DNA from: Patescibacteria group bacterium
Lineage (GTDB): Bacteria > Patescibacteriota > Patescibacteriia > UBA9934
Assembly: GCA_038064675.1 (NCBI GenBank)
Contig: JBBTSM010000003.1
Location: 102,663-166,662 of the forward strand
Direction: 5' to 3'
DNA length: 64,000 nucleotides
Part shown: positions 7,751 to 37,662 of the stretch, piece after piece
Layout: each line of letters begins with the position of its first letter
Numbering within the stretch: the stretch's first letter is position 1
Position numbers and translations under genes: made by a program
The notes under the pieces: model-generated
Database searches by the model: none
Seen by the model: only the letters and a program-made list of their open reading frames with translations
What the model was told of the DNA's origin: nothing

Positions 7751-9400
7751 ATGTCTCTTCGCCGAATCATTATCATCACCGGGCTCTGTCTTGGCATCGC
7801 AATAATCGTACCGCGTGCCTTTGCATTTCCATCAAACACCGTTGCAAATCCTGGTGCCGAGACAGGAGATTTTACCAGCTGGTCCAATGTCGACATCAAT
7901 CCGTGGACGGTGGAAACCGGTGGTGCTTATGCCGGAACAAAATCATTTGTTGGAGGGTCGGGGAGCACAATCATCTCGCAAGAAATCGACCTTGTGAGCG
8001 CTGGCTACACCACAGCACAGCTCGACACCATTAGTGGCGTAGAACTCTCCGCCTGGGTAAAAGGCTTTACCGATGACAATCTTACCGGCGACCAATACGG
8101 ACTATTCATCGCCTATCAAGGCGAAGGCTTTGGCACCATGGCATTTACGTACGTTCCGCTCACCAGCGTTCCAACAGACTGGACGCACGTTGCAATCGGC
8201 CTTGGGAACTACGGACCGGGGCTCCGCTACATTCGCGTTGAACTCTGGTCGGTGGACGGCGATGGCGACGGTGCAGATCATGGAGCAATGTTCGATGATG
8301 TTGCACTGAGCATTGCCGGAGACACCGATACACCAACCGTATCGGCTCTTTCTCCCACAGACGGTGCAACGTCGGTAAATCTCCTTTCGAATCTCACCCT
8401 CACCTTCAACGAAACAGTCTACGCTGGCAGTGGCAATATCGTCATCCATCGTCTAAGCGATGGCGCCGTGGCTGCAACAATCGACGCAACGTCAGGCGCA
8501 GTGACCGGCCCAGGAACAAACACCATTGTTATCAATCCCACAACGTCGCTCCTTCAGGGAACCGCGTATTACATCACCGTCGACAATGGAGCATTCGTCG
8601 ATACGTGGACGAATCCATACGTCGGAATCTCCACGTCCACCGGCTGGAACATCCAAACCCCATTCCCCCAGGATTCGTCCGATCCGTCATCAACTCCTGA
8701 CTTCACCATTCATGATGCCGCCGCGACGATCGATGCATCTGGTGTAGCGACAGTGATATGGTCCGCGTCGTCGGAGACGCCATTCATTCGCGTGTATGCC
8801 GCGAAAGACGGACAAGATTGGGAACGCATTTCCGATCCGCTTCTCCCAACATCGTCGTTTTCATGGCAGATCCCGGAAGTATATCGGGGAAAGAATGTCT
8901 CATTTTTGGTTGAAGCAACCGACCTCGCTTCACGTCTTTCAAGCGCAGAAACACCCACTGTTCTTTGGACAGTGAATGCATCGGCCAGCTCCCCTACAGC
9001 ATCAGCAACCACGCCGAGCGAAGGAAGCTTCGTTCGTACCGCGGCGCAAGATACTGTGTACTACATCAATGCGAATTATCAACGCCAACCCATTCCGAAT
9101 GCCCAAACATTCTTTACGTGGGAAACATCATTTGATGTTGTACAAATCGTTAACGCAACAGCCTTGTCGGCAATTCCTATGGGGCCACCGCTTCCTCCAA
9201 AACCAGGAACCATGCTTATAAAAATCACCTCTGTTCCAAAAGTATACGTTGTTGATGGCACCGCCGAACATCCAACGTTGCATTGGATTCGAACGGAACA
9301 AAAAGCCATAGAGCTCTACGGTGCAGAATGGACACAGAATGTTCTGGATGTTCCCCCAACATCGTGGTCGTCGTACGATGTTGGATCCGATATTGAGTAA
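7751..9400 (+). CDS. secreted bacterial Ig-like domain protein ending in the C-terminal module shared with the two giant proteins
   Basis: Internal Met (MSLRRIIIITGLCLGIAIIVPRAFA looks like a signal peptide). Ig-like segment SPTDGATSVNL...AYYITVDNGAFVD. The C-terminal ~110 aa are homologous to the C-terminal regions of 13740..19064 and 28246..37662. Confidence 0.5.
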   Translation: MSLRRIIIITGLCLGIAIIVPRAFAFPSNTVANPGAETGDFTSWSNVDINPWTVETGGAYAGTKSFVGGSGSTIISQEIDLVSAGYTTAQLDTISGVELSAWVKGFTDDNLTGDQYGLFIAYQGEGFGTMAFTYVPLTSVPTDWTHVAIGLGNYGPGLRYIRVELWSVDGDGDGADHGAMFDDVALSIAGDTDTPTVSALSPTDGATSVNLLSNLTLTFNETVYAGSGNIVIHRLSDGAVAATIDATSGAVTGPGTNTIVINPTTSLLQGTAYYITVDNGAFVDTWTNPYVGISTSTGWNIQTPFPQDSSDPSSTPDFTIHDAAATIDASGVATVIWSASSETPFIRVYAAKDGQDWERISDPLLPTSSFSWQIPEVYRGKNVSFLVEATDLASRLSSAETPTVLWTVNASASSPTASATTPSEGSFVRTAAQDTVYYINANYQRQPIPNAQTFFTWETSFDVVQIVNATALSAIPMGPPLPPKPGTMLIKITSVPKVYVVDGTAEHPTLHWIRTEQKAIELYGAEWTQNVLDVPPTSWSSYDVGSDIE

Positions 9401-9425
9401 ATGCCATCCATTCTCTTTCTTCATC

Positions 9426-9455
9426 AAAACCCCCACTCTTTCGAGCGGGGGTTTT
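9426..9455. terminator. bidirectional terminator AAAACCCCCAC...GCGGGGGTTTT
   Basis: Read directly. Confidence 0.45.
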
Positions 9456-9475
9456 GTGTTGTATATGAAATTGCC

Positions 9476-9586
9476 CTACCACCGACCTGTTTCGTTTGGA
9501 TTGTATCCATTCACAACCTCAGTGTAGTTCGTATACCCGTCGCCTTCAGCGAAGGACATAAGATCGGCTCTCACGCTGTTGGACAT
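9476..9586 (-). pseudogene. orphan 3' fragment resembling the end of gene 12393..13568
   Basis: Encodes ...MSFAEGDGYTNYTEVVNGYNPNETGRW*. About 50 nt are near-identical to the 3' end of 12393..13568. No plausible N-terminus or signal peptide upstream. Confidence 0.35.
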
Positions 9587-9764
9587 TTTGATAGCAGCAC
9601 GTGGTCGCAAAACAAATACTCGTCCTGAACGCTGAATCGGATTACGAAGAATCCGCTGGTGCCACAAAAGACGTTGTGCAATACAGAGCACCTGGAATAT
9701 CGCAGAAAACCATTGCAAAATAAGCCAAAAAGTGATACGGTTTCTTTGAATACGCAAACAATAT

Positions 9765-10397: not shown

Positions 10398-10436
10398 GTG
10401 CGCATTCCGCCTTGGAATACCCTAACCACACATTCT

Positions 10437-10829: not shown

Positions 10830-10874
10830 CGCAGGCCTGGTATTCCTTATCCAAACACATTACGCTTCTAATAT

Positions 10875-11105: not shown

Positions 11106-11112
11106 ACTTTCC

Positions 11113-11139
11113 AAAAATCCAGCACAACGCTGGATTTTT
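11113..11139. terminator. bidirectional terminator AAAAATCCAGC-ACAAC-GCTGGATTTTT
   Basis: Perfect inverted repeat between A and T runs. Confidence 0.55.
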
Positions 11140-12392: not shown

Positions 12393-13568
12393 TTACCACC
12401 GACCAGTTCCGTTTGGATTGTAACCATTCGCAATCTCGAGGCCATCGTTGTAGCCGTCGTTATCGGAATCGGAATCAAAACGGTTGGTCCAGTGAACGGT
12501 CATTTCGGAATAATCCGTAAGACCGTCACCGTCGGAATCGAGCTTACCAACGCCGTTTGGATCGTAGCCATTGATGACTTCGGTGTAATCTTTATATCCA
12601 TCACCGTCCGTATCGGAACTGAACGGATTAGAATGCCACACATGTTCCTCATCCGCATTCGTTACGCCATCGCCGTCAGTGTCCATAGCGGAAACCGCGT
12701 TACCAAGGCTTTCAATAGCGGCCTCATCGTCGTCCGACAGATGATAGTTCTTGATATCGGTTGCATTGGTTGGCAACACAATATTCGTAGGCCGATTAAA
12801 GCTCTTGAAGAGCACCGAAACGCCGATGGTGGTATACGATGCATCGCTCTGGCGCACACTCACATTGAGTGTGAACATCGTAGGAAGCATGTCTGCAACA
12901 TCTACCCAGAAGGAACCACCGATCGTGACATGTTCGGCAAGATAGGTACGAACAGCGTCTTTTCCAGACGATGCGACCATCTTTTTCTCAACGAGATAAT
13001 CAACAAGATTATCGGTATCGATCGTGTACGCGTATCGCACCGTAGGCTTCTTGTTGATGAAGTCCACGGTTTCGTAATGGTACGTCACGATACCACGATC
13101 AAACATATCTTGAAGAGCTGACTGCATTTCTGCAATCCCCTCTGCGGTATCGGCGGCAGTTGGATACTCAGTCGAACCAGACTGCTTTGCAAAATACCAA
13201 GTGTCCCCGTCTTGCGAAAAGTACGCGGTGTCTTTGGTAAGGATCAACGATCCGTTCCGCGTATTGAATGCTCCGTTCTGGTCGGTCATCGATGCAGCGA
13301 AATCGAAGCGGCTATTTTGTGTTTCACTGGAAACGCCATCAAGATCCAAATGAATCTTCACCGGTTGCTTCATGCTTGATGTATACGTCTCCATATCCAC
13401 ATCGACGCCAAAATCAACAGACGTCGCGCTTGCGACGTTCTCAAGAAGTGTCGCGGACGAATCACCGAAGCTTGAGGTGAGGGTCGTCGAGGCCTGCGCA
13501 AACGACGCCGGCAACAACACCACACCCAAAACAGCAGTAGAAACGAGCTTTTTGATAAGATTTTTCAT
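12393..13568 (-). CDS. secreted protein with C-terminal thrombospondin-type-3-like Ca-binding repeats
   Basis: Internal Met MKNLIKKLVSTAVLGVVLLPASFAQA (signal peptide). Three DxDxDGxxDYxE motifs. Ends NGYNPNGTGRW. Confidence 0.5.
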   Translation of the reverse strand: MKNLIKKLVSTAVLGVVLLPASFAQASTTLTSSFGDSSATLLENVASATSVDFGVDVDMETYTSSMKQPVKIHLDLDGVSSETQNSRFDFAASMTDQNGAFNTRNGSLILTKDTAYFSQDGDTWYFAKQSGSTEYPTAADTAEGIAEMQSALQDMFDRGIVTYHYETVDFINKKPTVRYAYTIDTDNLVDYLVEKKMVASSGKDAVRTYLAEHVTIGGSFWVDVADMLPTMFTLNVSVRQSDASYTTIGVSVLFKSFNRPTNIVLPTNATDIKNYHLSDDDEAAIESLGNAVSAMDTDGDGVTNADEEHVWHSNPFSSDTDGDGYKDYTEVINGYDPNGVGKLDSDGDGLTDYSEMTVHWTNRFDSDSDNDGYNDGLEIANGYNPNGTGRW

Positions 13569-13739
13569 GGAAATTAGCCAATGAATTAACCAATCAGTAT
13601 AGCAAAAAAATGGCCAAAAGTCAAGGAATTTGGCTAAGATAAAAGGTAAAATAGAATCTAATCTGATCCTGAAATCGATGAAAAAGCAGATCAATGCAAC
13701 GCATCGTGAGCTGCATTAAGGAGGCACTGCTTCGAAATG

Positions 13740-16700
13740 TTACTCGTGAAGGTCCTGGCGGGCGCGGAGTTGGGAGCGGTCAACAAAGAATGGCGCACTG
13801 ATATCGGAGCCATGAAGAAAACGTGAGTAAAGCGTCGGCGGGATGTCGATAACGTAGTCTGCCCAGGAAGCACCAAAGATATCGCGCACAAGTACTTCAT
13901 TTGTCATCCATCGCAACGCAGTTCCCGTTCCAGATGTTTCAAGCCAATACACGCGATGATCGGATTGGACTTTGACCAGCACCGTTCCAGGATTCGGCAA
14001 CATTGGTGCGCCAACCACCATTTGTGGAAGCGTTGCATCGGTGACCATTTTAATCTCAGAACGGCTGATGATATATGTATACAGCGTCTGATTATCGATA
14101 AACGGATGTCGTCGTCCACCGGCCCCAACGTAATAGACTGTTGGATAGTTCGGCGACTGGATAAGATCTCCTACCGAAACTTCAGTAACCGATTCGGACA
14201 AGCCATTGAACGGCGATCGTCCTTGACCCTCGTAGACGACGGTTGTTGAAGGAGTTTCAGTTCCGTCACCCGCTTCCACGGCTCCATCACCAGATAGAAT
14301 TCCAGAGATGGAAAAAGTGTCATCCGACATATCTTGTGCACCAATGGTCAGCAAATCTCCACCTTCAATGAGCACGCGAGCGTTCGTCGTTGAAACATTC
14401 GGCACCGTCCACGTATAGCTGCCCGTGTTTTGAATATTTGTGGCAATCGCGGTATACGACACACCGTCGTCGAGAGAATACGCAAGCGTAACGAATGGAA
14501 TGGCAGTATCATTTGTGGACGACCAGCTGATGAATGCATGTTGTGCAGCAAGAAGACTGTCGCCGCCATTTGGCGTGATGAGTGAAAGAACAGGAACAAC
14601 GGATGGCGCGCTTTCTTCATCATTCGAGGAATCTGATGGCACTGTGGTAAACGTTGCCGGATGCGTCACTCCGGCAAGCGTGCCTCCGAACGGCACACCG
14701 GCAGTATCGTTTCCTCCAGTAACCGTGAACGTATACGACGTAGTAGGCGCTAAAAGCGATGGATGTGTTAGCGTGAGCACTGTTTCTCCCGCAGACCATG
14801 TTGCAGCGCAGCCATTAACCTCTGGAGCCAGGGTATACGTCACTGTTGAGACATTCATCGACTCGCTAAACGTAGCGGTAACATTGATGCTTCGCAACAC
14901 CGCCACCGATCCGTCTGCTGGAGTTATTGCAACAATACTTGGTGGTGCGGTATCGGTGGGAGTGACGAATCCCGACGACGCAACGTTGCCGAGCGTGTCA
15001 CTCACGCTTCCGATAATCGTGACGAGCGGTGTAAGACCGGTGTCATAGAAAGATCCCTCAGTTAACGACAGCGTCACTACGCCGGCAGATGCCTCGACAG
15101 CATCAGTAACAGCGTAAAGCGCTACAAAGAAGTCGGTGTCCGCAACAGTCGCAGCGTCGAGATCTTTTGAAAACGTCAAGACAATGCGATCAATCTTCCC
15201 ATTCGCATCAAAATCTTGTGTTGCGCCAGAAAGCAGAACTGGCGTTGCGGCGTCGCTCGGTGTAACCGATCCCGAAGCTCGAACATTCCCCACGCCATCC
15301 GCAACGTCTCCCACCAAAGACACGAGCGGGGTTGCACCAGTATCAACGCTTGATCCTTCAGTAAATACAATCGTCACTGCACCGGCCGAGGTTTCTGATG
15401 CGCTAGTGACAACGTATCCTGCAACAGTAATATCAGATCCTGAAACAGTTGATCCGTCGAGATCCTCCGAGAATAGCGCAACGACGCGGTCGATATAGCC
15501 ATTCGCGTCGATATCCTGCGCAACAGCAGACGTAAGGATTGGCAATGCAGAATCTGTTGGTGTCAGCGCCCCAGAAGTTGTGACATTGCCGGATGCATTA
15601 CTGACGCTTCCAACAATAGTGACGAGCGGCGTTGCGCCGGTATCAACCGATGGCCCCTCCGAGAGAACAATGGTCACTACGCCGGCAGCCGTTTCTGACG
15701 CACTCGATATTGTGTATCCAGAAACCGCAAAGTCCGATCCTGCAATAGTAGAACCATCAAGGTCTTGAGAAAATGTTACAACAACGGAATCAAGATATCC
15801 GTTTGTATTTGTATCGGCTGTGGTGGCCGACGCCATACTTGCAACAGACTGTGTCGTGGTAGAAAGCACATTGCTCCGATCCGAAACCGATGCGAAATTC
15901 GCGTCGTTGTCGTATGCCTCCACCGCGAAATAATATACCGTGTTCGGCGTAAGGCCGGTCACTATTCCAGTCGTCACATCACCAAACGTCGCGGTCTGTG
16001 TGAGTGCATTGCTCGCGGTTCCATACTTCACATGATATCCAGCGATAGTCGGTTCGAAAGCGGTAATGCTCGACCAATTCACCGTTGCCTGTGTTGCGGT
16101 CACCGCCGAGATCGTCAGCGCTGTCGGTTGCATGAATGCCAACGCCCACAACCGAGCGATACGTTCATAGCCGGCTGCATTTGGATGGACACCGTTATAC
16201 TCAGCCGGTTTATAATTTTGGAAGGTGAAAAAGAAATCAGCACCTCCTCCAAGTCCGAGCTCTGAGCGCATGGCGTCAATCGCGGCCGGATAGGTTGCCA
16301 AAACATCTACAATGTCCGCACGACTATCGTAGAACGGGTAAGGGACGTAAATATCGTCGTAGGAGGCGCCGTACGTGCCAATAAGGGTATTAAACAACGA
16401 CTCCATGTCGGCACGATATGTGGCTGCGGAGTGTAAGACTTGAGAATCTCCGTTGCCGAGCGCTACGATCCATTTTGTAGGAGCAAGTGCCAATTCTCTC
16501 GTTGTCCAATTGGAAACCATCACTGCCGACTGATAGTTCGACGCTCGTATACCAAGATGTCCTTCGTTCATCAGAAACACGGGGTAGCCATAATACGCAG
16601 ACAATTGATCGTTCAAATCTGTGAGAAACGATTCTTTAAACAGAGCATCAGACGGATCATTTTGTGGAAAATTTCTATGGTCAAGAGAAAGAGAACCCGC

Positions 16701-20202: not shown

Positions 20203-20284
20203 TGTAGTATAGCAAGCCGCGCTCCACACACTGATGTGTTTTACAATTGAAAAGACCACACCCGCGAGAGCGCGGCCCTTCATG

Positions 20285-28199: not shown

Positions 28200-28207
28200 T
28201 TCATACC

Positions 28208-28240: not shown

Positions 28241-28245
28241 GTATT

Positions 28246-31200
28246 CTACGGCCTTGGCGCTACGGTGTACGGATCGAAGCCATTCAAAATTTCAATATAG
28301 TCCGTGTACCCATCGCCATCTGAATCGAGCGTACTTGATGAATCAAGAGGCGCAGCAATCGTTGGCGTTACGGGCTCTGAAGTCGCACAAGCATTCGTGA
28401 GTCCGGGAGTTACAGCGTATCCCGGAACGTGCATGACGTCGCTTGGGTACGAAACAAGATTGTAAATGCTCTCCGCACGCCACGCGAGGTCCGTCAGCAC
28501 GGCGCCAAAGTGGTAGTTGCGGTAGAACACGTCCTGAATGTCGTCCACCTTCTTGTTCCAGTCGCTGCCGTAAATTGTTGTCGCATCGGTTTCAGACAGC
28601 ACCCAGCGCAAGCTTCCGTCGCTATCCACTGCGTACACCCGAGGATCGGTAATGAACTTCACCAGTCGGCTTCCCGGACGATACGTGACATTTGGACCGA
28701 TTGGCATTGAAGCCATTTCGGACGGCGTCAGAACCGTTACATGATCTTCGCTGCAGAACCACGAATCGTACACATGAGGGTTCGGGAATGCATGACGATA
28801 TCCGTCTGCACCAACGTAGTACACCGTAGTATCGTATTGGCTCTCTGCATTGCTATCATCGGAAAGCTTCACCAGGGAATGGATTTCAACCGACGCTGGT
28901 AGTGATGCAACGCGTGCGGCGATTTCCGCGATTGCTGCACCAGATGCCGTACTGTCATCAACAATAGTTCCTGGATCGACGTTTGATGTCGTCGATGCGG
29001 ATGCAGATACAATGAACGTATCAGAAACTGATCGCGCAAGCACTTGGATAAAGTCCGTTCCTTCAATACGCACCTCTGCGGTTGTCGTCGCTTGATCAAG
29101 GGTAATCGTCGTTGATCCCGTGTTCGTCACAAAGTATCGCTGCAGCGCCCATGTTGCTCCTCCATCCAACGAAAGGTACACGTTGACTGCTGGAATGCTT
29201 CCTGTCCATACCCACGTCACGCTCATCGCCCCAAAGCCGTATGTTGCATTAGCGGTTGGCTTTCGTAGGCTGATGGTTGGCGACGTTGATGTACCGCCGC
29301 CTCCCCCTCCGCCTCCACCGCCCCCTCCACCACTTTCGCCGGTGGATACTGGATCGTTGTCCGTTACTGTCACAGGTACTCCTTCAATCGTCAGCGCGGC
29401 GTACGTGGAATCCGCAGAAGAAACAACGTGCAGAATGGAGTGAACCTCTGCACCCTCGATTGTTGAATCATCAACTGCGGAAACCGTGACCGCTTGTGGA
29501 GTGCTCCAGTTTTCGGCGGTGAACGTGAGCTGACTGACGCTTGTTGTGACGTCACCGTCGCCAATCATGAACACCGAGACATTCGCCGTTGGCTGGCTCT
29601 TCAGCACAATGGTGTATGCGTCCTGGGCTCCGCCTTCTGTTACCGCTGTGGCGTCTTCGCTTTGGACCACGGTGAATCCCGGCGTGTCGTTGTCGGTATT
29701 TGAAAGTGAAAGATCTGCAGGATTGATTGCGGCATACACCGCATCAACCGAGACTGCTGTTGCAAGAATAATGTTGTACGCCACCGTGCCGTCGTTTACC
29801 ACATCATCTATACCCGTTACCGTAATCGTCTGCGGCACATTCCAGTTTACCGACGTGAATGTTGCCGTGGATGCACTCACCGTTCCTTCGGTGGCGTCCG
29901 AACTTGAAATGTCGATACGAACATCTGCGATTGGCTCTGACGTGAGAACGAGCGTGAAAGTTGCTGTTGCGCCAGCCTCCGAGGTGTTCCCAGAAATGGC
30001 TCCAACCGTAATTCCCGCAACGTCGTTATCAGCAACCTGAACGCTCACCGATACAACGACAAGAGCATCGAACAATACATCAGATGAATACGTCGTGTGA
30101 TCGATACTATGCGTATGCGTTCCTTGAGCGATTACATCGTCCGTAACAGAAATGGTGACTGTCTGTGGGGTGTTCCAGTTTCCCGAAGTGAATGTCAAAA
30201 TTGATACATCCGTTGCGACCGGTGCGGCTGCAGTAAGATTCACCGTAACATCTGACGATGGCTGTGCAGAGAGAACCAATGTGTATGTATCTGTTGCACC
30301 AACTTCGGTAACCGCCGATGCCCCGCCCGACTGCGTTACGAGAACCGACGCGGCATCATTATCCGTATTCGTCACGGAAACGTCTGTTGGGTTCAATTCT
30401 GAATATGCTGGATCAGTTGACGTCATTGCACCAAGAACCACCGCATACACCACATCGCCATCCACAACAACGTCGTTCATACCCGTCATTGTGATGGTCT
30501 GTGGAATACTCCAGTTTCCCGAAGTAAACGTGAGCGATAGCGTGGAAAGCATTCCTTCGGCCTCATTCGATGAAGAAAGTGGAATTGTGACGTCTGCCGA
30601 TGGCTGCGAATTGAGGACGACGGTAAACGTTGCTGTTCCGCCGGCTTCCGTGGTGTTCCCTGACGACGGCGACACCGAAACTCCAACCGCATCATTGTCC
30701 GTGTTTATTACGCTCACATCAGCAGGATCAAGCGCGTTGTAGTTTGTGTCCGCCGATGTCGCAGCACCAAGAACAATTGAATACGCCACAGGTCCATCAA
30801 CCGCACCGTCGTCCACACCGGTCACGGTAATGGTTTGCGGTGCATTCCAGTTTTCCGACGTAAATATCACTGTCGCCGGCAAAACCGTTCCTTCATTCGT
30901 GGCGCTCGATGAAATGTCGAATGTCACATCTGCAGTCGGCTGTGTGTTGAGGACGATCGTAAAAGTTGCAGTAGCGCCAGCTTCTGTGGTGTCTCCGGAA
31001 ATTGCGCCAATCGTCGCAGCAGCAACATCGTCGTCGGTGTTCGTTACCGATACATCCGATGGATTGATGCCGTTATACAGCAGATCATCCGAAGTCGCTG
31101 CACTCGTCACAATTGCGTACACGATATTTCCATCGATCGTTGAGTCGTTCGCGCCAGTTGCAGTGACGGTTTGCGGTGTACTCCAATTCCCTGTCGTGAA

Positions 31201-34200
31201 TGTCAACGATGCTGGAGATACCGTTCCTTCGGTAAGGTCCGAGCTCGTCAGCCCGATTGTAACGCTTGCAGTTGGTTGCGCATTGAGCACTATGGTGAAC
31301 GTTGCAGTGCCGCCGGCTTCTGTGGTGTCGCCAGAAATCGCACCGAACGTGAATCCAGAAACATCATCGTCCGTGTTCGTTGCTGAAATGTCTCCCGGAT
31401 TCAATCCGTTGTATGGAGAATCTGCAGACGACGCTGCTGCAGTGACAATCGTGAACGCAATATCCCCATCATCAAGATCGTCATTCACACCGGTAACGGT
31501 TACTGTTTGTGGTGTGTTCCAATTTCCCGAGGTGAATGTTTTTGATGTCTGTACTGTTCCTTCGGTGGTATCCGAACTTGAAAATCCAACGGTAACGTCT
31601 GTTGTTGGCTGCGTATCGAGAACAATCGAGAAGGTTGCGGTGCCGCCAGCCTCGGTGGTGTTCCCCGAAATTGTTCCCACAGTAATTCCCGCGGTGTCGT
31701 CGTCTGTTGTTGAAACAGAAACGTCCGATGGATTCAATCCGTTGTAATTTGTATCGCTCGACGTTGCTGCTGCGGTAATGATCGAGTATGCCACCGTTCC
31801 GTCGTCAATAACATCGTCTACACCGGATATGGTAATCGTCTTCGGCGTATTCCAGTTCCCCGTTGTGAATGAAGTGCTTGCAACAACCGTGCCTTCGGTG
31901 GCATCCGAGCTCGAAAGATCGATCGTCACACTTGCCGTCGGTTGTGCGTTCAACACAATAGTGAATGTTGCGGTGCCACCGGCTTCGGTGGTATTCCCAG
32001 AAATCGCGCCAACCGAGAAACCAGAAATATCATCGTCATCGTTCACAATAGTCACGTCTGCAGGATTCAATCCGCTGTATGCAGAATCGGCAGACGTGAT
32101 AGCTCCAAGAAGTGCGCTGTACGAAACATCGCCATCGTCGAGATAATCATTCACGCCAGTCACCGTCACCGTCTGTGGCGTGGACCAATTTCCCGACGTA
32201 AAAGTGAGCGATGCAACGCCGACCGAACCTTCCGTTGCGTCTGAAGACGAGAGCGGGATCGTCACGTCGGCAGTTGGCTGTGCGGTAAGTACAACCGTGA
32301 ACGTTGCAGTCGCTACCTCGTCTTCGCTTGTGTGACCAGAAATCGCCGATGCCGTTGCGCTAGCCGTGTCGTTGTCCGTATTTGTGACCGACTCATCCGA
32401 AGCATTAATGCCGTTGTAGTTGGTGTCGGCTGATGTTGCCGCAGCGGTCACAATTGCATACACAACATCGCCGTCGTCGATAAGATCATCAACACCAGTT
32501 ACCGTTACGGTTTGTGGCGTGCTCCAGTTCCCCGTCGTGAATGTGAGCGATGATGGAGAGACGGTTCCCTCAGTCGTGTCGTTCGACGTGAGACCAACGG
32601 AAACGCTTGCCGTTGGCTGCGCGTTGAGGACGATGGTGAATGTTGCGGTTCCGCCAGCTTCCGTGGTGTTTCCGGAGATTGCTCCGAGCGTAAATCCTGA
32701 TGTGTCGTTGTCGGTATTTGTCACGGCAATGTTTGCTGGATTGATGCCATCGTAGTTGAGATCGGCGGATGTTGCCGCTGCGGTAACAATCGAGTATGCA
32801 ATGTCACCGTCGTCAAGATCATCGTTCACGCCAGTGACCGTGATCGTCTGTGGCACGCTCCAGTTTCCTGATGTGAATGTTACTGATGCCGGAGAGACGG
32901 TTCCCTCAGTGGAATCTGAGCTCGAGATCGCTACAGAAACATCGGCAGTTGGTTGCGCCGTGAGAACGATCGTGGCCGTTGCAGTAGCGCCAGCTTCCGT
33001 AGTATTGCCCGAAATCACGGATACCGTAACGCCAGCGACATCGTTATCGTCATTCACCACCGTCACATCCGATGGATTCATTGCGTTGTACAACAGGTCG
33101 TCCGATACCGCCGCGGCCGTCACGATCGAGAACGAAATATTTCCGTCGATGACCACGTCATCAACGCCAGTAATCGTCACCGTTTGTGGCGTAGACCAGT
33201 TCCCCGTCGTGAATGTGAGCGATGATGGAGAGACGGTTCCTTCCGTGGTGTCGTTCGATGATAAGTCAATGGAAACGCTTGCAGTTGGTTGAGCGTTCAA
33301 CACGATAGTGAATGTCGCGGTGCCGCCAGCTTCTGTGGTGTCCCCCGAGATGACTGAAACGGTGAAGCCGGAGGTGTCGTTGTCTGTATTGGTAACACTC
33401 ACATCGGCAGCGTTCAGACTGTCATAGTTACCATCCGCAGAAGTAGCAGCCGCGGTAATAATACTATAGGCAATATCACCATCATCAAGATCATCATTTA
33501 CCCCTGTCACGGTAATCGTCTGTGGCGTGCTCCAATTGGCGTTGGTGAATGTAAGGGAGGCAGCAGAAACCGTTCCTTCACTGGTGTCATTTGAAGAAAT
33601 TCCTATCACCACATCACTAGCGGGCTGCGTGTCTAAAACAATTGTGAAGGTGGCCGTGGCTCCAGCTTCGGTGGTATTGCCAGAGATAGCGGAGACGGTT
33701 ATGCCGGCCGGAGTGGAAGAAAACCAATTAGTCGTATTTGTACCCTCAACGGAATTCGCCGGATTAATCGGCGCGCTGACACCCGAAGAATTATCCGTAA
33801 CAATGCTGTCAGTAATATCGAGGTAATCTCCGCTAAACGACGAGGTTCCTTCGAAGTCGAACGTCGACGCCGTGGTAGGAGACGAAGAAACGATGTTTAA
33901 ACGATCTGAAGCATCCAATCCATCAAGCGTTAGCGTTCCATTGATCGTCTGCGTCGAACCTGCTTCGATCGTCAAAACAACATCGGTTGCATTGTCACTG
34001 CTATCCTGCAAGGTCAAAGAATTCCAGCTGGGACTTCCGGTAATGCTGTGGTTGGCGTTGGCATCAAAGGTAACCGTTCCACTATTGTGGGTAAACGTTG
34101 CCGCGCCTTTGATGAAGTTACCAGAAATCGTAGTCAAGGTCGGAGCGGTGAACGTTCCCGTCGTCAACGTGAGTGTTCCGTTGACATCGGCAGTCCCCGA

Positions 34201-37200
34201 ACTTCCGGTGTATGTTCCTCCAGAAAGAGTCAAACCAGCATCAAATGTTTGCGTGGCCGATCCGCCCGTGTAGGTTCCGCCGGAGACAGTCGTCAAACCC
34301 GTGCTTGTGGTCGTCTGCCCGTTAGCATCGTACGTTCCCGACGAAATAGCCAAAGTACCAGCGATAACTTTTGCCCCAGCCGATTGGACAATATCTGCCG
34401 CATCCGTCGTAGCAATGGTGAGGTTGTAGTAATCCGTTGCTCCAAAATCTTTCAACGTGTAGGTATCGGCAGCAGCGTCCCCATCACCAAGGTAGATCCA
34501 GGCTCCCGAATCCGTATCCTGCGTCAAAGAAAGAGATTCTGATCCGATCAAACGAACCGTGTCGCTGTTGCTAAACGTTCCCGTCACGGTAAGACCAAAA
34601 CCCGCCAAGGAAAGAATACCGTTACTAACGGTAAGATTTTCCGCGATCGATGTGGTGGCGGGCAAGGTAAACACCGTCGTCGCCGCCGTCCCGTCGATCA
34701 CGACATTTTTATAGCCGGAATAGTTTTTCAGGGTATAAGGACCAGATGTACCGTAGTAATAAATCGTACTCCCCGCATCCCATTGCGGATACGAAGCGCC
34801 GGTTGTGGTAATTGTCTCTCCCCCTTGGAGCTTCAAGGTTCCTCCGGCGTTGATGATCAGCTTTGAACTTGACGCATTCATGTTGATTGTATTCCCGTTC
34901 AAATCAAGCGTTCCGTTTACTACCGTAACCGTTGTTGTATTTCCGTCATCTAGGGAGGAGTCAAGAATCAAGGAACCGCCGGATTTATCAATGGTGAAGT
35001 TTCCAAGTGCCTTTGCACTTGATTCTGTAAAATGTTGTGTTCCTGATCCGTAAAAACCTACTGTTGCTGCTGAACTAGCAATACTCGCACCCACAGTCAT
35101 ATTTCCGTACAACTGAAATGTCCCTTCTGCAGGTTTCGTCGTTTGCGCAATCACTCCGTTGGTTCCCCCGAGTGATAAATTACCAAGAACAATTAAGGAG
35201 TCACTATTTGAAATAGTTGTTGTGTTGGTGCTCGTCGGATTGACAGAAAGAGTATAGAAAGTCTCCGTGAAATTAACGTTGATCGTTGGGTTTGACCCGT
35301 TCATGCTGACGGATCCATTGTTGTGGTTGAAGATTCCCCCCGCGGTATGCGTCCAGCTCCCGTTAACCGTCATGGTTGCTGTTGTTGCGTTGAATGTTCC
35401 TCCAGCAATAACAACAGAACCGAGAGTAACGCTCGACGCCCCAAAGTTGATTGTTCCGCCATTATGGGTATAGGTACTATTTGGAGTAAAGCCAAGGTCG
35501 GCGGTATTCCAAGTTCCGTTAGTGAACGTAAACGTTCCGACGGTGATCGCTGTTGATTGCGTAACGGAACCAGCACTTTTATCTATGGTGAATGTTCCCG
35601 AGAATCCCGAAGGAATGCTCCACACTTGATCCGCTGTGCCCGTCAAAGAAATTGTCCTCGAACCAGGGAAGGAACTCCCACTTCCAGTAATATCTCCCCT
35701 TAACTCAAGCGTTGCTGCCAACGCACCGCCACCAGCGTTACTAAAATTAAATGTGTGCGCGATAATTAACGTCCCTCCGGTAACGGTTCTTGTATTTGAA
35801 TTTGTGACGGAGAATGTCGCGTTGTAAAAAATATCTTGATCAACAACCGTAATGGTCGAGCTTCCACCCGTTGATGAAAACGTACCGCTTCCGTGGTTAT
35901 AGGTTCCGCCGGAATGAGTCCACGTTGTCGAGATAGCTGTCGTTCCACTGGTTGCTGTGTAGGTACCACTAGAAAGCGTGTACGTGGAGTGCGTCACCGT
36001 GTCGCTTCCTCCGGTAAAGATTCCGCCGGATTGGTTGTAGGCTCCGGAAAAAGTCATGGCGTATCCGGTTGCGTCGATCGTTCCCGCCTGAAGGTTTACT
36101 GCGCTAAATGTGAGAGTTCCTGTACCCGTTCCGCTGAAGGTAAAATTGGCGTTGTTGAGCGTCACCGTGCTGGCGAGCGCGGCTTGTCCGCCGTTGAGCG
36201 GGAGGTTCTGGGTGTTGGTGCCGTCGATAAGAAGTATGCCGCCTCCACCATCCCATCCAGAATTGAGCGAAATGGTACTCGTTGCCTCGACCGTACCCGT
36301 TCCAAAACCACCGTTGGTAAGGGTGAGCGTACCGGTAGCAACAAGTGTATCTCCAGATGAAACGGTCAATAACGTCGAACCATTTTTCGCAAGCTCAAGG
36401 TTATTAAATGTTTCTGTTGTCGCGACGTTTGTTGTAGAAGCTGAACCGGAAAACCTTACAGAACCACTGTTGTGGGTAAATGTTCCCGTGCCAGCCGTAT
36501 GCGTAAACCCGGCGCTAAAAGTGGTTGTCCCACTCGTAGCGGTATACGTCGCTCCTGGGCCACTCAGCGTAAAAGCGCCGGTGTGGGTTACTGCATTGAT
36601 TCCACCAACAAAGACACCATTGGATGATTGATCAAATGTGGAACTAAAGGTTGTCGTGCCCGAACCGGACGTTGGGGCATTGTAGGTTCCTCCGCTTAAA
36701 GCAACCGCCCCCGAAAACGTCACGGTTGCGGTGTTGGCATTAAAGGTACCCGCAGACATGGTCAATGCTCCCACTGCAACCGTTCCTGTACCAGATGTGT
36801 TAACCGTAGCGCTCGTGTTTGTGACGCTCAGGTTTACAGCCGTATTTCCTGAAGTAAGTGTTGCTGTAACGGTGGCTGATCCTCCAAGAAGAAGCGTTCC
36901 TGTTCCTCCATCAAACGTAGAGGCCCAACTTGTTGTTCCACGCGCGTCCCAGGTTCCGGTCGTCAGGTTACCGTCGGTAAGCGTGCTCGTACCAGTCACA
37001 ATCATCGTATCTCCAGAGGCAATCGTAAGACTCGTTGCTGTGGTTTTATTGAGCGTGACGTTATTAAACGTTTCACTAGTGGCGAAATCAAATGTTCTTG
37101 TACTCCCCCCTGTAATATTCACAGCACCACTTGCTTGAGAGAACGTTCCCGTTCCGGCTGTGTGGGTGAAGTTACTACTAAAAATTGTTGTGCCGATACT

Positions 37201-37662
37201 TGCGGTATAAGACGCCCCCACTCCACTAAACGCAAAAGCGCCCGTATGGGTCACCGTCTGATTGCCTCCGGTAAAGGTACCCGCTGTTTGTGTATATGCA
37301 CCGGTAAACGTGAGCGCGTCCGTACTTCCATTAAATATCGCCGCTCCTGCAAAAGTGGTGACACCGCTTACCGTAAACGAACGAGCCTGCGTAATTGTTC
37401 CAGTATACCCAGAGTTAATGTTGAATGTCGTCACGCCAGTAGTAAAGCTTGCATCGATGGTGGCGTCCTTTGTGGACGTCGCATCAAAGGTGGCGATATC
37501 GGCCGTTGTTGGTGCCGTATCAAGGGACCAGTTAAAACGATCACTCCAATTATTTGTTGAACCTCCGCCGTCCCATGTTCTCGTGGCGGCCATAGCGGAA
37601 TGAACGGAGACAAAAAAGAACATCCCAAAAACGAGGAATGTCCCGAAGAGATATTTCAGCAT
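28246..37662 (-). CDS. giant (~3138 aa) adhesin-like surface protein: signal peptide, PATR/autotransporter-type beta-helix repeats, ~14 tandem ~100-aa Calx-beta/cadherin-like repeats, a Gly14 linker, the shared C-terminal module and a TSP3-like tail
   Basis: Start at internal MLKYLFGTFLVFGMFFFVSVHSAMA. PATR signature TWDGGGSTNNWSDRFNW. Repeat unit VSVISGNTTEAGGTATFTIVL...VTITGVDD. GGGGGGGGGGGGGG stretch. Ends DGDGYTDYIEILNGFDPYTVAPRP. Confidence 0.65.
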   Translation of the reverse strand: MLKYLFGTFLVFGMFFFVSVHSAMAATRTWDGGGSTNNWSDRFNWSLDTAPTTADIATFDATSTKDATIDASFTTGVTTFNINSGYTGTITQARSFTVSGVTTFAGAAIFNGSTDALTFTGAYTQTAGTFTGGNQTVTHTGAFAFSGVGASYTASIGTTIFSSNFTHTAGTGTFSQASGAVNITGGSTRTFDFATSETFNNVTLNKTTATSLTIASGDTMIVTGTSTLTDGNLTTGTWDARGTTSWASTFDGGTGTLLLGGSATVTATLTSGNTAVNLSVTNTSATVNTSGTGTVAVGALTMSAGTFNANTATVTFSGAVALSGGTYNAPTSGSGTTTFSSTFDQSSNGVFVGGINAVTHTGAFTLSGPGATYTATSGTTTFSAGFTHTAGTGTFTHNSGSVRFSGSASTTNVATTETFNNLELAKNGSTLLTVSSGDTLVATGTLTLTNGGFGTGTVEATSTISLNSGWDGGGGILLIDGTNTQNLPLNGGQAALASTVTLNNANFTFSGTGTGTLTFSAVNLQAGTIDATGYAMTFSGAYNQSGGIFTGGSDTVTHSTYTLSSGTYTATSGTTAISTTWTHSGGTYNHGSGTFSSTGGSSTITVVDQDIFYNATFSVTNSNTRTVTGGTLIIAHTFNFSNAGGGALAATLELRGDITGSGSSFPGSRTISLTGTADQVWSIPSGFSGTFTIDKSAGSVTQSTAITVGTFTFTNGTWNTADLGFTPNSTYTHNGGTINFGASSVTLGSVVIAGGTFNATTATMTVNGSWTHTAGGIFNHNNGSVSMNGSNPTINVNFTETFYTLSVNPTSTNTTTISNSDSLIVLGNLSLGGTNGVIAQTTKPAEGTFQLYGNMTVGASIASSAATVGFYGSGTQHFTESSAKALGNFTIDKSGGSLILDSSLDDGNTTTVTVVNGTLDLNGNTINMNASSSKLIINAGGTLKLQGGETITTTGASYPQWDAGSTIYYYGTSGPYTLKNYSGYKNVVIDGTAATTVFTLPATTSIAENLTVSNGILSLAGFGLTVTGTFSNSDTVRLIGSESLSLTQDTDSGAWIYLGDGDAAADTYTLKDFGATDYYNLTIATTDAADIVQSAGAKVIAGTLAISSGTYDANGQTTTSTGLTTVSGGTYTGGSATQTFDAGLTLSGGTYTGSSGTADVNGTLTLTTGTFTAPTLTTISGNFIKGAATFTHNSGTVTFDANANHSITGSPSWNSLTLQDSSDNATDVVLTIEAGSTQTINGTLTLDGLDASDRLNIVSSSPTTASTFDFEGTSSFSGDYLDITDSIVTDNSSGVSAPINPANSVEGTNTTNWFSSTPAGITVSAISGNTTEAGATATFTIVLDTQPASDVVIGISSNDTSEGTVSAASLTFTNANWSTPQTITVTGVNDDLDDGDIAYSIITAAATSADGNYDSLNAADVSVTNTDNDTSGFTVSVISGDTTEAGGTATFTIVLNAQPTASVSIDLSSNDTTEGTVSPSSLTFTTGNWSTPQTVTITGVDDVVIDGNISFSIVTAAAVSDDLLYNAMNPSDVTVVNDDNDVAGVTVSVISGNTTEAGATATATIVLTAQPTADVSVAISSSDSTEGTVSPASVTFTSGNWSVPQTITVTGVNDDLDDGDIAYSIVTAAATSADLNYDGINPANIAVTNTDNDTSGFTLGAISGNTTEAGGTATFTIVLNAQPTASVSVGLTSNDTTEGTVSPSSLTFTTGNWSTPQTVTVTGVDDLIDDGDVVYAIVTAAATSADTNYNGINASDESVTNTDNDTASATASAISGHTSEDEVATATFTVVLTAQPTADVTIPLSSSDATEGSVGVASLTFTSGNWSTPQTVTVTGVNDYLDDGDVSYSALLGAITSADSAYSGLNPADVTIVNDDDDISGFSVGAISGNTTEAGGTATFTIVLNAQPTASVTIDLSSSDATEGTVVASTSFTTGNWNTPKTITISGVDDVIDDGTVAYSIITAAATSSDTNYNGLNPSDVSVSTTDDDTAGITVGTISGNTTEAGGTATFSIVLDTQPTTDVTVGFSSSDTTEGTVQTSKTFTSGNWNTPQTVTVTGVNDDLDDGDIAFTIVTAAASSADSPYNGLNPGDISATNTDDDVSGFTFGAISGDTTEAGGTATFTIVLNAQPTASVTIGLTSSDLTEGTVSPASLTFTTGNWSTPQTVTATGANDSTIDGNIVYAIVTSAATSDDLLYNGINPSDVSVTNTDDDVAAATIGAISGDTTEAGATATFTIVLNTQPTADVTFDISSSATNEGTVLPATVIFTSENWNAPQTITVTGVDDGAVDGPVAYSIVLGAATSADTNYNALDPADVSVINTDNDAVGVSVSPSSGNTTEAGGTATFTVVLNSQPSADVTIPLSSSNEAEGMLSTLSLTFTSGNWSIPQTITMTGMNDVVVDGDVVYAVVLGAMTSTDPAYSELNPTDVSVTNTDNDAASVLVTQSGGASAVTEVGATDTYTLVLSAQPSSDVTVNLTAAAPVATDVSILTFTSGNWNTPQTVTISVTDDVIAQGTHTHSIDHTTYSSDVLFDALVVVSVSVQVADNDVAGITVGAISGNTSEAGATATFTLVLTSEPIADVRIDISSSDATEGTVSASTATFTSVNWNVPQTITVTGIDDVVNDGTVAYNIILATAVSVDAVYAAINPADLSLSNTDNDTPGFTVVQSEDATAVTEGGAQDAYTIVLKSQPTANVSVFMIGDGDVTTSVSQLTFTAENWSTPQAVTVSAVDDSTIEGAEVHSILHVVSSADSTYAALTIEGVPVTVTDNDPVSTGESGGGGGGGGGGGGGTSTSPTISLRKPTANATYGFGAMSVTWVWTGSIPAVNVYLSLDGGATWALQRYFVTNTGSTTITLDQATTTAEVRIEGTDFIQVLARSVSDTFIVSASASTTSNVDPGTIVDDSTASGAAIAEIAARVASLPASVEIHSLVKLSDDSNAESQYDTTVYYVGADGYRHAFPNPHVYDSWFCSEDHVTVLTPSEMASMPIGPNVTYRPGSRLVKFITDPRVYAVDSDGSLRWVLSETDATTIYGSDWNKKVDDIQDVFYRNYHFGAVLTDLAWRAESIYNLVSYPSDVMHVPGYAVTPGLTNACATSEPVTPTIAAPLDSSSTLDSDGDGYTDYIEILNGFDPYTVAPRP
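29540..33830 (-). repeat. about 14 tandem ~300-bp intragenic repeats inside the giant adhesin gene
   Basis: Tandem protein repeats, plus a run of mutually similar antisense ORFs on the plus strand between 29546 and 33826. Confidence 0.6.

What the first reader, a model, noticed from the sequence alone, without database searches (positions are those of the whole stretch)
7751..37662. A shared ~110-aa C-terminal module (plus an upstream ~100-aa Ser/Thr-rich domain) across three secreted proteins
The C-terminal regions of 7751..9400, 13740..19064 and 28246..37662 align clearly, as shown by TVYY(V/I).A......P..........V.....L...P.GP.......PG..L(V/I)K(V/I/F)......VY.(V/L)(D/E)......L.W(I/M).......(I/L)(Y/F)G..W...V.D(I/V). 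The two giants also share the preceding P.ISL.TPNGG...V.W..S...I..V.L.YSLDGG.T(W/Y)..I..N..NTGS.T.T module. I cannot name either domain. A conserved C-terminal module on otherwise unrelated multi-domain surface proteins suggests a cell-surface anchoring, sorting or secretion-recognition domain specific to this lineage.
Basis: seen in the sequence. Interest (0 to 1): 0.55.

Follow-up and report, generated by a model that had tools for sequence, protein, structure and literature searches.

The report
Patescibacterial cell-envelope anchoring domain, unmodelled
Three secreted proteins of an uncultured Patescibacteria (CPR) bacterium end in the same ~125-residue folded domain, made of two EccB-like repeats, which belongs to a very large family with no database model and most likely tethers secreted enzymes and adhesins to the cell wall rather than acting as a sorting signal.

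Summary
The C-terminal regions of the three ORFs are homologous (BLASTP E 1e-26 and 2e-24), and exactly three copies occur in the window. The upstream domain is a Kre9/KNH-like Ig domain and is present in all three proteins, not only the two giants.

The C-terminal module matches nothing in Pfam, NCBIfam or PDB sequences. It is nevertheless a huge family: 6,631 clusters at 50% identity. Named source records are Patescibacteria lineages, though many MAG records carry other labels.

The module is a tandem duplication of a ~55-65-residue unit (hhalign probability 97%). AlphaFold2 models it with pLDDT 96.7. The nearest solved fold, weakly, is the repeat domain of the T7SS protein EccB, which itself resembles the wall-binding phage protein PlyCB.

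It is not a C-terminal sorting signal:
- In relatives it sits just after the signal peptide more often than at the C-terminus, and it also occurs alone.
- It has no LPXTG or PEP-CTERM features.

Its fusion partners include Peptidase_M23 peptidoglycan hydrolases, cupredoxins, SH3b domains, glycoside hydrolases and proteases.

My best reading, at about 0.55 confidence, is a non-covalent cell-envelope (wall glycan) anchoring and targeting module. Ligand binding is inferred, not shown. I rate it an unmodelled variant of a known kind and moderately interesting.

The parts
7751..9400 (+). P1, a 549-aa secreted protein: signal peptide, jelly-roll-like N-domain, Big_5, Kre9-like domain, then the module. 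It equals MEK7632699.1, annotated 'Ig-like domain-containing protein [Patescibacteria group bacterium]'.
8699..8974 (+). P1 Kre9/KNH-like Ig domain (aa 317-408)
   Evidence: Homologous to the P2 copy, E 2e-8. Coordinates.
9023..9397 (+). P1 C-terminal module (aa 425-549). Unit A is 9023..9196 and unit B is 9197..9397. It ends at the stop codon.
13740..19064 (-). P2, a 1774-aa secreted protein: signal peptide, fn3 domains, a GDSL-like region, Big_5, Kre9-like domain, then the module.
14304..14594 (-). P2 Kre9/KNH-like Ig domain (aa 1491-1587), containing an Asp-box-like YSLDDGVSY motif.
   Evidence: PF10342, 25.8 bits, above the gathering score of 24.6. Coordinates.
13797..14171 (-). P2 C-terminal module (aa 1632-1756). 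Unit A is 13998..14171 and unit B is 13797..13997. An 18-aa tail follows (13743..13796).
   Evidence: (AF2 pLDDT 96.7)
28246..37662 (-). P3, a 3138-aa secreted giant: signal peptide, ~1250 aa of T/G/S-rich repeats, 13 tandem 112-aa repeats, a Gly13 linker, Kre9-like domain, the module, then a TSP3-like tail.
29005..29280 (-). P3 Kre9/KNH-like Ig domain (aa 2795-2886), containing an Asp-box-like LSLDGGATW motif.
   Evidence: Homologous to the P2 copy, E 1e-9. Weak BNR hit. Coordinates.
28492..28881 (-). P3 module (aa 2928-3057), of the 'NVTYRPG...VDDI' subtype. Unit A is 28684..28881 and unit B is 28492..28683.
28249..28491 (-). P3 81-aa tail after the module, ending in DSDGDGYTDYIEILNGFDP (TSP3_bac-like calcium-binding motif).
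   Evidence: PF18884, E 0.016, sub-threshold. Coordinates.

Best explanation
Each of the three proteins is exported by an N-terminal Sec signal peptide. Each carries a C-terminal cassette: a Kre9/KNH-like Ig domain, a low-complexity linker, and a ~125-residue binding module.

The module is an independently folding pair of ~55-65-residue alpha/beta units. Each unit has a 4-stranded sheet and 2-3 short helices, the same element order as the repeat domains of EccB, and these in turn resemble the wall-binding phage protein PlyCB.

I propose that the module binds non-covalently to a polymer of the cell's own envelope, either peptidoglycan or a wall-associated glycan. After signal-peptide cleavage, this would keep the enzyme or adhesin on the surface of a cell that, as I understand Patescibacteria, has no outer membrane (background knowledge, not checked here). 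It would be the functional counterpart of SLH, CWB2, LysM, SH3b or choline-binding modules in other monoderm bacteria.

Shown here: homology, family size, internal duplication, a confident fold, terminal position at either end, and the fusion partners.

Inferred, not shown: that the module binds anything, that the ligand is a wall glycan, and that the wall is the cell's own.
For: 1. It is an autonomous domain, not a linear signal.
- AF2 gives pLDDT 96.7 and pTM 0.87 for the module, and 90.4 for a single unit.
- Stand-alone proteins of signal peptide plus module, 170-180 aa, exist (P0015, P0030, P0033).

2. It is a tandem duplication. hhalign of half A against half B gives probability 97.2%, E 4.6e-11, over 55 columns. 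The single unit also occurs in long arrays in P0057.

3. It is always terminal, at either end: N 87, C 39, two or more copies 18, alone 6, internal-only 0; and N 52, C 45, alone 13. Known wall-anchoring modules such as SLH, LysM and SH3b show the same pattern (my background knowledge).

4. Fusion partners. Of the 120 best hits:
- 20 carry Peptidase_M23, a peptidoglycan endopeptidase. The order signal peptide, M23, module was verified.
- 16 carry a cupredoxin/plastocyanin domain, in the order signal peptide, module, cupredoxin.
- 4 carry bacterial SH3.
- Others carry GH114, NAGPA or an ice-binding-like domain.
- In the representative set the partners include GH10, GH5, GH44, peptidase C25, trypsin, chagasin and many Ig domains.
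- A module shared by a wall hydrolase and an electron carrier, which presumably has to stay near the membrane (my inference), fits retention at the cell's own envelope better than any catalytic or substrate-specific role.

5. Fold.
- The ten best Foldseek PDB hits are all EccB periplasmic domains (best E 5.5e-3, probability 0.92).
- For the single unit, the best TM-score is EccB1 3x3n (TMq 0.63, rmsd 3.9 A, 22% identity).

6. Viral contigs. In both viral contigs that carry the module, a lysozyme/SLT-like gene lies nearby. In L081 its stop overlaps the start of the module gene.

7. Family size. There are 6,631 clusters at E<=1e-3. Several copies occur per genome: three in this 64-kb window, and 2-3 loci from single MAGs.
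Against: - No binding experiment exists for this family, and none exists for the EccB repeats either. PMC4769845 says so explicitly.
- The structural match to EccB is weak. All Foldseek E-values are above 1e-3, global TMq is 0.34, and the single-unit hits are statistically insignificant.
- Sequence profiles do not reach EccB significantly: E 0.11-0.46 against PDB sequences, and none of 39 modules hits PF05108.
- The PF05108 hit of P0057 (E 4e-10) sums weak matches over near-identical repeats, so it is inflated.
- Fusions to GH10, GH5 and GH44 would equally fit a carbohydrate-binding module aimed at an external substrate.
- The viral evidence rests on two contigs only.
Confidence: 0.55

Rival explanations
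1. The module is a lectin or carbohydrate-binding module directed outward. It would bind glycans of the host cell surface (many Patescibacteria are thought to be episymbionts) or polysaccharide substrates, so it would act as an adhesin or substrate-targeting domain rather than a self-anchor.
For: - It is fused to GH10, GH5, GH44 and GH114 glycosidases and to Ig-rich adhesin-like giants.
- M23 fusions could be weapons against a host wall.
- The conserved aromatic and charged positions (Y, R, F/W, K, E, W, D) are typical of sugar-binding surfaces (my background knowledge).
- PMC10936435 proposes that wall-binding domains on highly expressed Patescibacteria exoproteins mediate host attachment.
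Against: - Cupredoxin fusions (16 of 120) and protease-inhibitor (chagasin) fusions make little sense if the module binds a foreign surface.
- The module is highly conserved across thousands of lineages, which presumably have very different hosts and substrates. This argues for a conserved ligand on the cell itself.
- In the N-terminal architectures the module follows the signal peptide directly, as expected if it sits nearest the cell's own envelope.
Confidence: 0.22
2. The module is a protein-protein docking or oligomerisation domain. It might dock cargo onto an S-layer lattice or pilus, or form rings as PlyCB does, rather than binding a glycan.
For: - PlyCB functions as an octameric ring (PMC4769845).
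- EccB repeats are structural elements of a multiprotein machine.
- Stand-alone module proteins exist.
- About 25 of the 150 best representatives are a conserved ~1,200-aa protein with the module at its N-terminus and Ig-like repeats after it. No Pfam hit was found for the 20 members of this group that were scanned. This could be an S-layer-type protein.
Against: - No partner protein co-occurs consistently in the loci inspected.
- The very broad partner repertoire and several copies per genome fit a common abundant ligand such as the wall.
- No oligomer prediction was made.
Confidence: 0.12
3. One reading: a C-terminal sorting or secretion-recognition signal, processed by a cognate sortase, exosortase or secretion system.
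For: - In the window all three copies are C-terminal.
- The named records are all Patescibacteria lineages.
Against: - In relatives the module is N-terminal more often than C-terminal, and it also occurs alone or at both ends.
- It is a stable 125-residue fold.
- The three proteins have no LPXTG or PEP motif and no hydrophobic helix with a basic tail.
- In P3, 81 further residues follow the module.
- There is no hit to Por_Secre_tail, PEP-CTERM or LPXTG models in Pfam or NCBIfam.
- No sortase-like gene was found among the 30 window ORFs scanned.
Confidence: 0.03

Closest known systems
Repeat domains R1-R4 of EccB (type VII secretion, Pfam PF05108; PDB 4kk7, 3x3m, 5cyu, 7np7)
   Same: - The unit is ~55 residues with a 4-stranded sheet and two helices, and units are packed in pairs.
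- It lies outside the cytoplasm of a bacterium with a Gram-positive-type wall.
- EccB gives the best Foldseek hits for the module (probability 0.92) and the best TM-score for the unit (0.63).
- A tandem-array relative, P0057, scores above the PF05108 gathering threshold, and the best-matching stretch falls on profile positions 184-249. EccB1 repeat R2 spans residues 185-241.
   Different: - There is no N-terminal transmembrane helix, no central core domain, and two units rather than four.
- There is no T7SS context.
- The window modules and 39 relatives do not hit PF05108.
- The sequence relationship is not significant by profile search.
PlyCB, the cell-wall-binding subunit of streptococcal phage lysin PlyC (PDB 4F87)
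   Same: - It is a small alpha/beta wall-binding unit that can be a separate polypeptide from the catalytic part.
- In viral contig L081 a module gene directly follows a lysozyme-like gene.
   Different: - PlyCB was not recovered by my Foldseek searches.
- The resemblance is second-hand and weak.
- PlyCB works as an octameric ring that binds the streptococcal wall. No oligomer evidence exists here.
Non-covalent wall-anchoring modules of monoderm bacteria (SLH, CWB2, LysM, SH3b, GW, choline-binding repeats)
   Same: - What it probably works like: repeated small units at the N- or C-terminus of diverse exoproteins.
- It is frequently attached to peptidoglycan hydrolases such as M23.
   Different: - No sequence match to any of these families.
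- The fold is different.
- The ligand is unknown.
Kre9/KNH-like Ig domain (Pfam PF10342), for the upstream domain only
   Same: - The P2 copy scores above the gathering threshold.
- The P1 and P3 copies are homologous to it.
   Different: The P1 and P3 copies do not reach the Pfam threshold on their own.

Membership tests
LPXTG/sortase sorting signal | An LPXTG-like motif, followed by a hydrophobic helix and a basic tail, at the extreme C-terminus | tested here: not met
   A regex and a reading of the last 40 residues of P1-P3 show no motif and hydrophilic ends. No sortase-like gene was found among the 30 window ORFs scanned.
PEP-CTERM/exosortase signal | A PEP motif with a transmembrane helix and an Arg-rich tail at the C-terminus | tested here: not met
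   No PEP motif. No NCBIfam hit.
T9SS C-terminal domain (Por_Secre_tail) | A strictly C-terminal ~80-aa beta-sandwich that matches the Pfam/TIGR models | tested here: not met
   No Pfam or NCBIfam hit. The module is N-terminal in most relatives. The predicted fold is alpha/beta.
SLH / LysM / SH3b / CWB / choline-binding wall modules | A sequence match to the family HMM | tested here: not met
   No hit at E<=10, apart from one spurious 9-residue Choline_bind_2 match at E 0.08.
EccB (PF05108) | A sequence match to PF05108 | tested here: not met
   None of the three window proteins and none of 39 modules match. Only the repeat-array protein P0057 matches, by summed weak hits.
EccB (PF05108) | An N-terminal transmembrane helix, a central beta-sheet core and four repeats, in a T7SS gene context | tested here: not met
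   The architecture is two units only, attached to unrelated domains. No T7SS genes were seen among the window ORFs scanned.
EccB-repeat / PlyCB-like fold | A ~55-aa unit with a 4-stranded sheet and 2 helices that superposes on EccB R1-R4 | tested here: inconclusive
Kre9_KNH (PF10342), upstream domain | A score at or above the Pfam gathering threshold | tested here: met
   The P2 copy scores 25.8 bits against 24.6. The P1 and P3 copies qualify by homology to P2.
Wall-binding function (any family) | Demonstrated binding to peptidoglycan or a wall polymer | not testable with these tools
   This needs biochemistry. Only indirect evidence from domain architecture is available.

The most novel reading that the evidence does not exclude
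The module is the Patescibacteria counterpart of the SLH domain. It would be a phylum-wide anchor, absent from Pfam and NCBIfam, sharing ancestry with the EccB repeats of type VII secretion. It would tether the S-layer-like ~1,200-aa protein family, wall hydrolases, cupredoxins and giant adhesins to a lineage-specific wall polymer. That polymer might be made by the conserved polytopic membrane protein encoded next to the stand-alone module genes. If so, the module defines the CPR surface proteome and offers an experimental handle on the CPR cell wall. It would also be indirect support for the untested proposal that EccB repeats bind peptidoglycan.
Probability: 0.3. Interest if true: 0.65.

Novelty: new variant of a known kind. 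Interest (0 to 1): 0.5.

Why it matters
Patescibacteria/CPR make up a large share of bacterial diversity, are almost entirely uncultured, and are thought to live attached to other cells (background knowledge). Their envelope and surface proteome are poorly understood.

This domain marks thousands of exported proteins (6,631 clusters at 50% identity). It is absent from Pfam and NCBIfam, and NCBI annotates its carriers as 'hypothetical' or by their other domains.

- A model of the domain would immediately improve annotation.
- It would give a computational definition of the wall-retained exoproteome.
- It would suggest a simple reagent, a fluorescent module fusion, for labelling or capturing CPR cells and for identifying the wall ligand.
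- The possible link to EccB repeats bears on the unresolved question of what those repeats do in type VII secretion.

Tried and rejected
- **Pfam, NCBIfam and PDB-sequence searches** of the module as single sequences and as profiles (A2, A3, A7, A9) found nothing meaningful. The top PDB-sequence 'hits' were antibody 'AVYYC' motifs and designed or repetitive propeller proteins, which are spurious.
- **Foldseek against viral structures** gave uncharacterised proteins (Rhodococcus phage Weasels2, TMt 0.72; CeV-01B) and only weak CHAP/amidase hits. This was not decisive.
- **tblastn against 50,697 cultured-phage genomes** found nothing.
- **Genome scan with A3** failed because the alignment was too divergent. 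It succeeded with the subtype alignment A6.
- **The PF05108 hit of P0057** was considered as proof of EccB homology. I downgraded it because the score sums weak matches over near-identical repeats.
- **Sorting-signal idea**: rejected.
- **Recent duplication or assembly artefact**: rejected. The copies are only 31-35% identical and sit in different architectures.
- **Literature**: no paper describing this domain was found. The 'peptidoglycan-binding domain' of PMC10936435 is an InterPro-recognised domain, which I take to be the classical PGBD; this module matches no Pfam model.

Full report
**1. What is in the window**

The window carries three ORFs:
- P1: 7751..9400 (+), 549 aa.
- P2: 13740..19064 (-), 1774 aa from the Met that begins the signal peptide. 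The ORF extends to 19139.
- P3: 28246..37662 (-), 3138 aa. The ORF extends to 37794.

All three begin with a basic n-region, a hydrophobic core and an AxA-type cleavage site, read directly from the sequence, so they are exported. P1 is identical to GenBank MEK7632699.1, 'MAG: Ig-like domain-containing protein [Patescibacteria group bacterium]', on a 284-kb contig. The window therefore comes from a Patescibacteria (CPR) MAG. The neighbouring genes are housekeeping genes: HisRS, bacterial topoisomerase IB, an amino-acid kinase, a MacB/HlyD transporter and dihydroorotate dehydrogenase.

**2. Checking the observation**

The C-terminal ~115 residues of the three proteins align without gaps:
- P1-P2: 35% identity, E 1e-26.
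- P1-P3: 31% identity, E 2e-24.
- 23 columns are invariant.

An HMM of the module, searched against every stop-to-stop ORF of the window in six frames, finds exactly these three (E 1e-45 to 1e-49). Nothing else scores better than E=4.

It can be named. The P2 copy matches Pfam PF10342, the Kre9/KNH-like Ig-like domain, at 25.8 bits against a gathering score of 24.6. The copies contain an Asp-box-like S-x-D-x-G-x-T/S-W/Y motif.

Each protein therefore ends in the same cassette: a Kre9-like Ig domain, a Ser/Thr/Asp-rich linker, and the module. In P3 the module is followed by 81 more residues that end in a TSP3-like calcium-binding motif. The copies are only about a third identical and sit in different architectures, so they are old paralogous domains and not a recent duplication or an assembly artefact.

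**3. The module has no name in the libraries searched**

Neither the single sequences nor profiles of the module hit any Pfam-A or NCBIfam family, or any PDB chain, by sequence. Thirty-nine diverse members scanned at E<=10 gave only noise. NCBI names the carriers 'hypothetical protein', or names them after their other domains. I found no paper that describes the module.

**4. It is a very large, apparently Patescibacteria-centred family**

- A first profile search returned 37 relatives. Every hit that carries an organism name is a Patescibacteria group bacterium, except one labelled only 'bacterium'.
- An exhaustive HMMER search of 1.84 billion 50%-identity representatives found 6,631 proteins at E<=1e-3, 4,700 at E<=1e-10 and 3,002 at E<=1e-30.
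- A scan of one genome per GTDB species, with two peptide patterns of one subtype, gave at least 587 confirmed loci. They are titled Patescibacteria group, Candidatus Uhrbacteria, Parcubacteria group or Minisyncoccota.
- Many third-party MAGs are labelled 'uncultured Gammaproteobacteria'. Their contig sizes (up to ~0.9 Mb) and best matches suggest these labels are placeholders, but I did not verify this.
- Several loci come from the same MAG.
- The best match to the window is 72% identical, so the window's own genome is not in that collection.

Two sequence subtypes are visible. P3 has 'GxNVTYRPG...VDDIPDAF'. P1 and P2 have 'PMLPKPG...WADYVIDI', and this second subtype is the one that travels with the Kre9-like domain.

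**5. Anatomy of the module**

The module is an internal tandem duplication. A profile of its first half aligns to a profile of its second half with hhalign probability 97.2% and E 4.6e-11 over 55 columns.

The single unit has the consensus G-x-L-[IV]-K-x-S-x(2,3)-V-Y-x-[VI]-x(3)-G-x(2)-R-x-[IVF]-x(2)-E-x(10)-W-x(2)-V-x(2)-V-x-D-x(8)-G. It also occurs in long head-to-tail arrays in P0057, a 1,423-aa protein.

AlphaFold2, run with a 40-sequence alignment, models the P2 module at mean pLDDT 96.7 and pTM 0.87. A single unit models at pLDDT 90.4. Each unit has four beta-strands and two to three short helices, in the order beta-beta-beta-alpha-alpha-beta-alpha.

**6. Nearest known fold**

Only Foldseek against PDB and BFVD was available.
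- For the whole module, the ten best PDB hits are all periplasmic domains of the type VII secretion protein EccB (7np7_B4, E 5.5e-3, probability 0.92; also 4kk7, 5cyu, 3x3m and others). Global TM is low at 0.34, because the relative orientation of the units differs.
- For the single unit no hit is significant. The highest TM-score is again EccB1 (3x3n: TMq 0.63, rmsd 3.9 A, 22% identity, probability 0.60). The lowest E-value is the Enterococcus phage endolysin LysIME-EF1, at E 0.5.
- Profile-to-PDB sequence searches put EccB1 among the few non-repetitive hits, but at E 0.1-0.5.
- The array protein P0057 passes the PF05108 (EccB) gathering score (39.3 bits, E 4e-10). Its best stretch falls on profile positions 184-249, and EccB1 repeat R2 spans residues 185-241. 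However, the score is the sum of weak matches over near-identical repeats, so its significance is overstated.

My conclusion is that the module most probably has an EccB-repeat-like fold and may share ancestry with it. This is suggestive and not established. It is not a member of the EccB family.

**7. Position and partners**

Position of the module in two samples:

| Sample | After signal peptide (N) | C-terminal | Two or more copies | Alone | Other |
|---|---|---|---|---|---|
| 150 best representatives | 87 | 39 | 18 | 6 | 0 internal-only |
| Second search, all hits at E<=1e-5 (274 reported) | 52 | 45 | 1 | 13 | 1 mid |

Most of the multi-copy proteins in the first sample have one copy at each end.

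Pfam partners among the 120 listed best hits of the second search:

| Partner | Number of proteins |
|---|---|
| Peptidase_M23 (one named by NCBI 'peptidoglycan DD-metalloendopeptidase family protein') | 20 |
| Cupredoxin/plastocyanin | 16 |
| fn3-like PF16656 | 5 |
| Bacterial SH3 | 4 |
| Ice-binding-like | 2 |
| Big_5 | 2 |
| GH114 | 1 |
| NAGPA | 1 |

I verified these domain orders:
- signal peptide, M23, module
- signal peptide, SH3, module
- signal peptide, module, cupredoxin
- signal peptide, module, GH114 or NAGPA

Longer representatives add GH10, GH5, GH44, peptidase C25, trypsin, chagasin inhibitor, cohesin, DUF3048, beta-propellers and many Ig-type domains. About 25 of the 150 best representatives are a conserved ~1,200-aa protein with the module at the N-terminus; no Pfam hit was found in the 20 of them that were scanned.

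**8. Interpretation**

A sortase, exosortase or T9SS-type sorting signal is excluded:
- The element is a stable globular domain.
- It works at either terminus or alone.
- It lacks the LPXTG or PEP motifs and the hydrophobic tail.
- In P3 it is followed by more protein.
- No sortase-like gene was found among the 30 window ORFs scanned.

The pattern resembles known non-covalent wall-anchoring modules of monoderm bacteria, such as SLH, LysM, SH3b, CWB2 and choline-binding repeats (my background knowledge). The shared features are:
- a small duplicated unit;
- a terminal position next to the signal peptide or at the C-terminus;
- many copies per genome;
- a very broad range of secreted partners;
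- recurrent fusion to a peptidoglycan hydrolase.

The cupredoxin fusions matter for one further point. An extracytoplasmic electron carrier presumably has to stay at the cell's own envelope (my inference). That favours self-anchoring over binding to a host or a substrate.

Two viral contigs add a weak hint. In L081 the module gene overlaps the stop of an SLT_3-like lysozyme gene. In L080 an SLT gene lies about 2 kb away. This recalls the two-gene PlyC arrangement, but it rests on two contigs.

I therefore favour, at about 0.55, a non-covalent envelope-anchoring or targeting module that binds peptidoglycan or a wall-associated glycan. The main rival, at about 0.22, is an outward-facing lectin or CBM for host or substrate glycans. 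A protein-docking or oligomerisation role is about 0.12, and a sorting signal about 0.03. No step of ligand binding has been shown.

**9. The three window proteins**

They are best read as large surface proteins.
- P1 has a jelly-roll-like domain and Big_5.
- P2 has fn3 domains, a GDSL-like esterase region and Big_5.
- P3 has ~1,250 residues of T/G/S-rich repeats followed by 13 tandem 112-residue repeats.

In each, the distal functional parts would be held on the cell by the C-terminal cassette. The Kre9-like Ig domain and the linker would act as a spacer above the wall-bound module. This last point is an inference.

**10. Novelty and value**

The kind of thing, a wall-targeting module, is well known, and the fold is probably related to a solved one. 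But this family has no model in Pfam or NCBIfam and was not found in the literature searched. It is very large and appears centred on a major uncultured radiation. I rate it a new variant of a known kind, with interest 0.5.

The most novel reading not excluded is that it is the CPR equivalent of the SLH system. It would anchor an S-layer-like protein and the exoproteome to a lineage-specific polymer, and would be evolutionarily tied to the EccB repeats (probability ~0.3).

Noticed in passing
window 29400..33700 (-), P3 aa ~1290-2760: P3 contains 13 tandem repeats with a period of 111-113 aa, marked by NW[SN]xPQT. Each looks like '...TEAGGTATFTIVLNAQPTA.V.I.L.SSD.TEGTVS...LTFT..NW..PQTVTVTGVDD..DG...Y.I'. 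None hits Pfam significantly. By eye they look Calx-beta or cadherin-like. A run of 13 glycines links them to the Kre9-like domain.
   Followed up: partly
window 12393..13694 (-): A 433-aa ORF with bacterial TSP3 calcium-binding repeats (PF18884, E 1e-13) lies directly downstream of P2 on the same strand. P3 also ends in a TSP3-like motif. This may be a shared Ca-dependent surface feature.
   Followed up: no
P0054, P0060, P0064-P0066 and others: About 25 of the 150 best family representatives are a conserved ~1,100-1,330-aa protein: signal peptide, module, then ~1,000 residues of Ig-like repeats. No Pfam hit was found for the 20 of them that were scanned. It is a candidate S-layer or sheath protein anchored by the module.
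   Followed up: partly
L082 1876..4772 and L085 2096..4862: Stand-alone module genes (signal peptide plus module: P0015, P0033) are divergently adjacent to two conserved genes. One is a ~640-aa polytopic membrane protein (47% identical between the two loci, no Pfam hit). The other is a Cys- and Pro/Gly/Tyr-rich membrane-anchored protein. They may be a wall-polymer enzyme or a partner.
   Followed up: partly
L081 3333..4789; L080 584..4973 (IMG/VR contigs): Two viral contigs encode module proteins next to lysozyme or lytic-transglycosylase-like genes. In L081 the SLT_3-like gene and the module gene overlap by 4 nt. This may be a two-component lysin like PlyC.
   Followed up: partly
one search hits (e.g. 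P0254, P0281): There is a recurrent architecture of signal peptide, module, cupredoxin/plastocyanin in Patescibacteria. It implies a wall-tethered extracellular copper redox protein, in organisms that, as I recall, are generally considered to lack respiratory chains.
   Followed up: partly
record titles: Many MAGs that carry the module are titled 'uncultured Gammaproteobacteria bacterium' (third-party co-assemblies). Given contigs of up to ~0.9 Mb and Patescibacteria-like best matches, these look like placeholder or wrong taxonomic labels. One 2.5-kb contig is binned to Acutalibacteraceae.
   Followed up: no
window 1659..4478 (-) and 21966..24767 (+): Two further large ORFs (939 and 933 aa) have no Pfam match. 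A NAGPA-domain ORF (867..1655) lies beside the first. NAGPA is also one of the module's fusion partners elsewhere.
   Followed up: no
window 19201..20283 (-): A bacterial type IB topoisomerase (PF01028 plus PF21338) lies immediately upstream of P2.
   Followed up: no
P0057: A 1,423-aa protein carries about 16 tandem single units of the repeat, in two alternating subtypes, followed by a C-terminal region with an HEWGH zinc-protease-like motif. Its source organism is unknown. It is the sequence bridge to Pfam EccB.
   Followed up: partly
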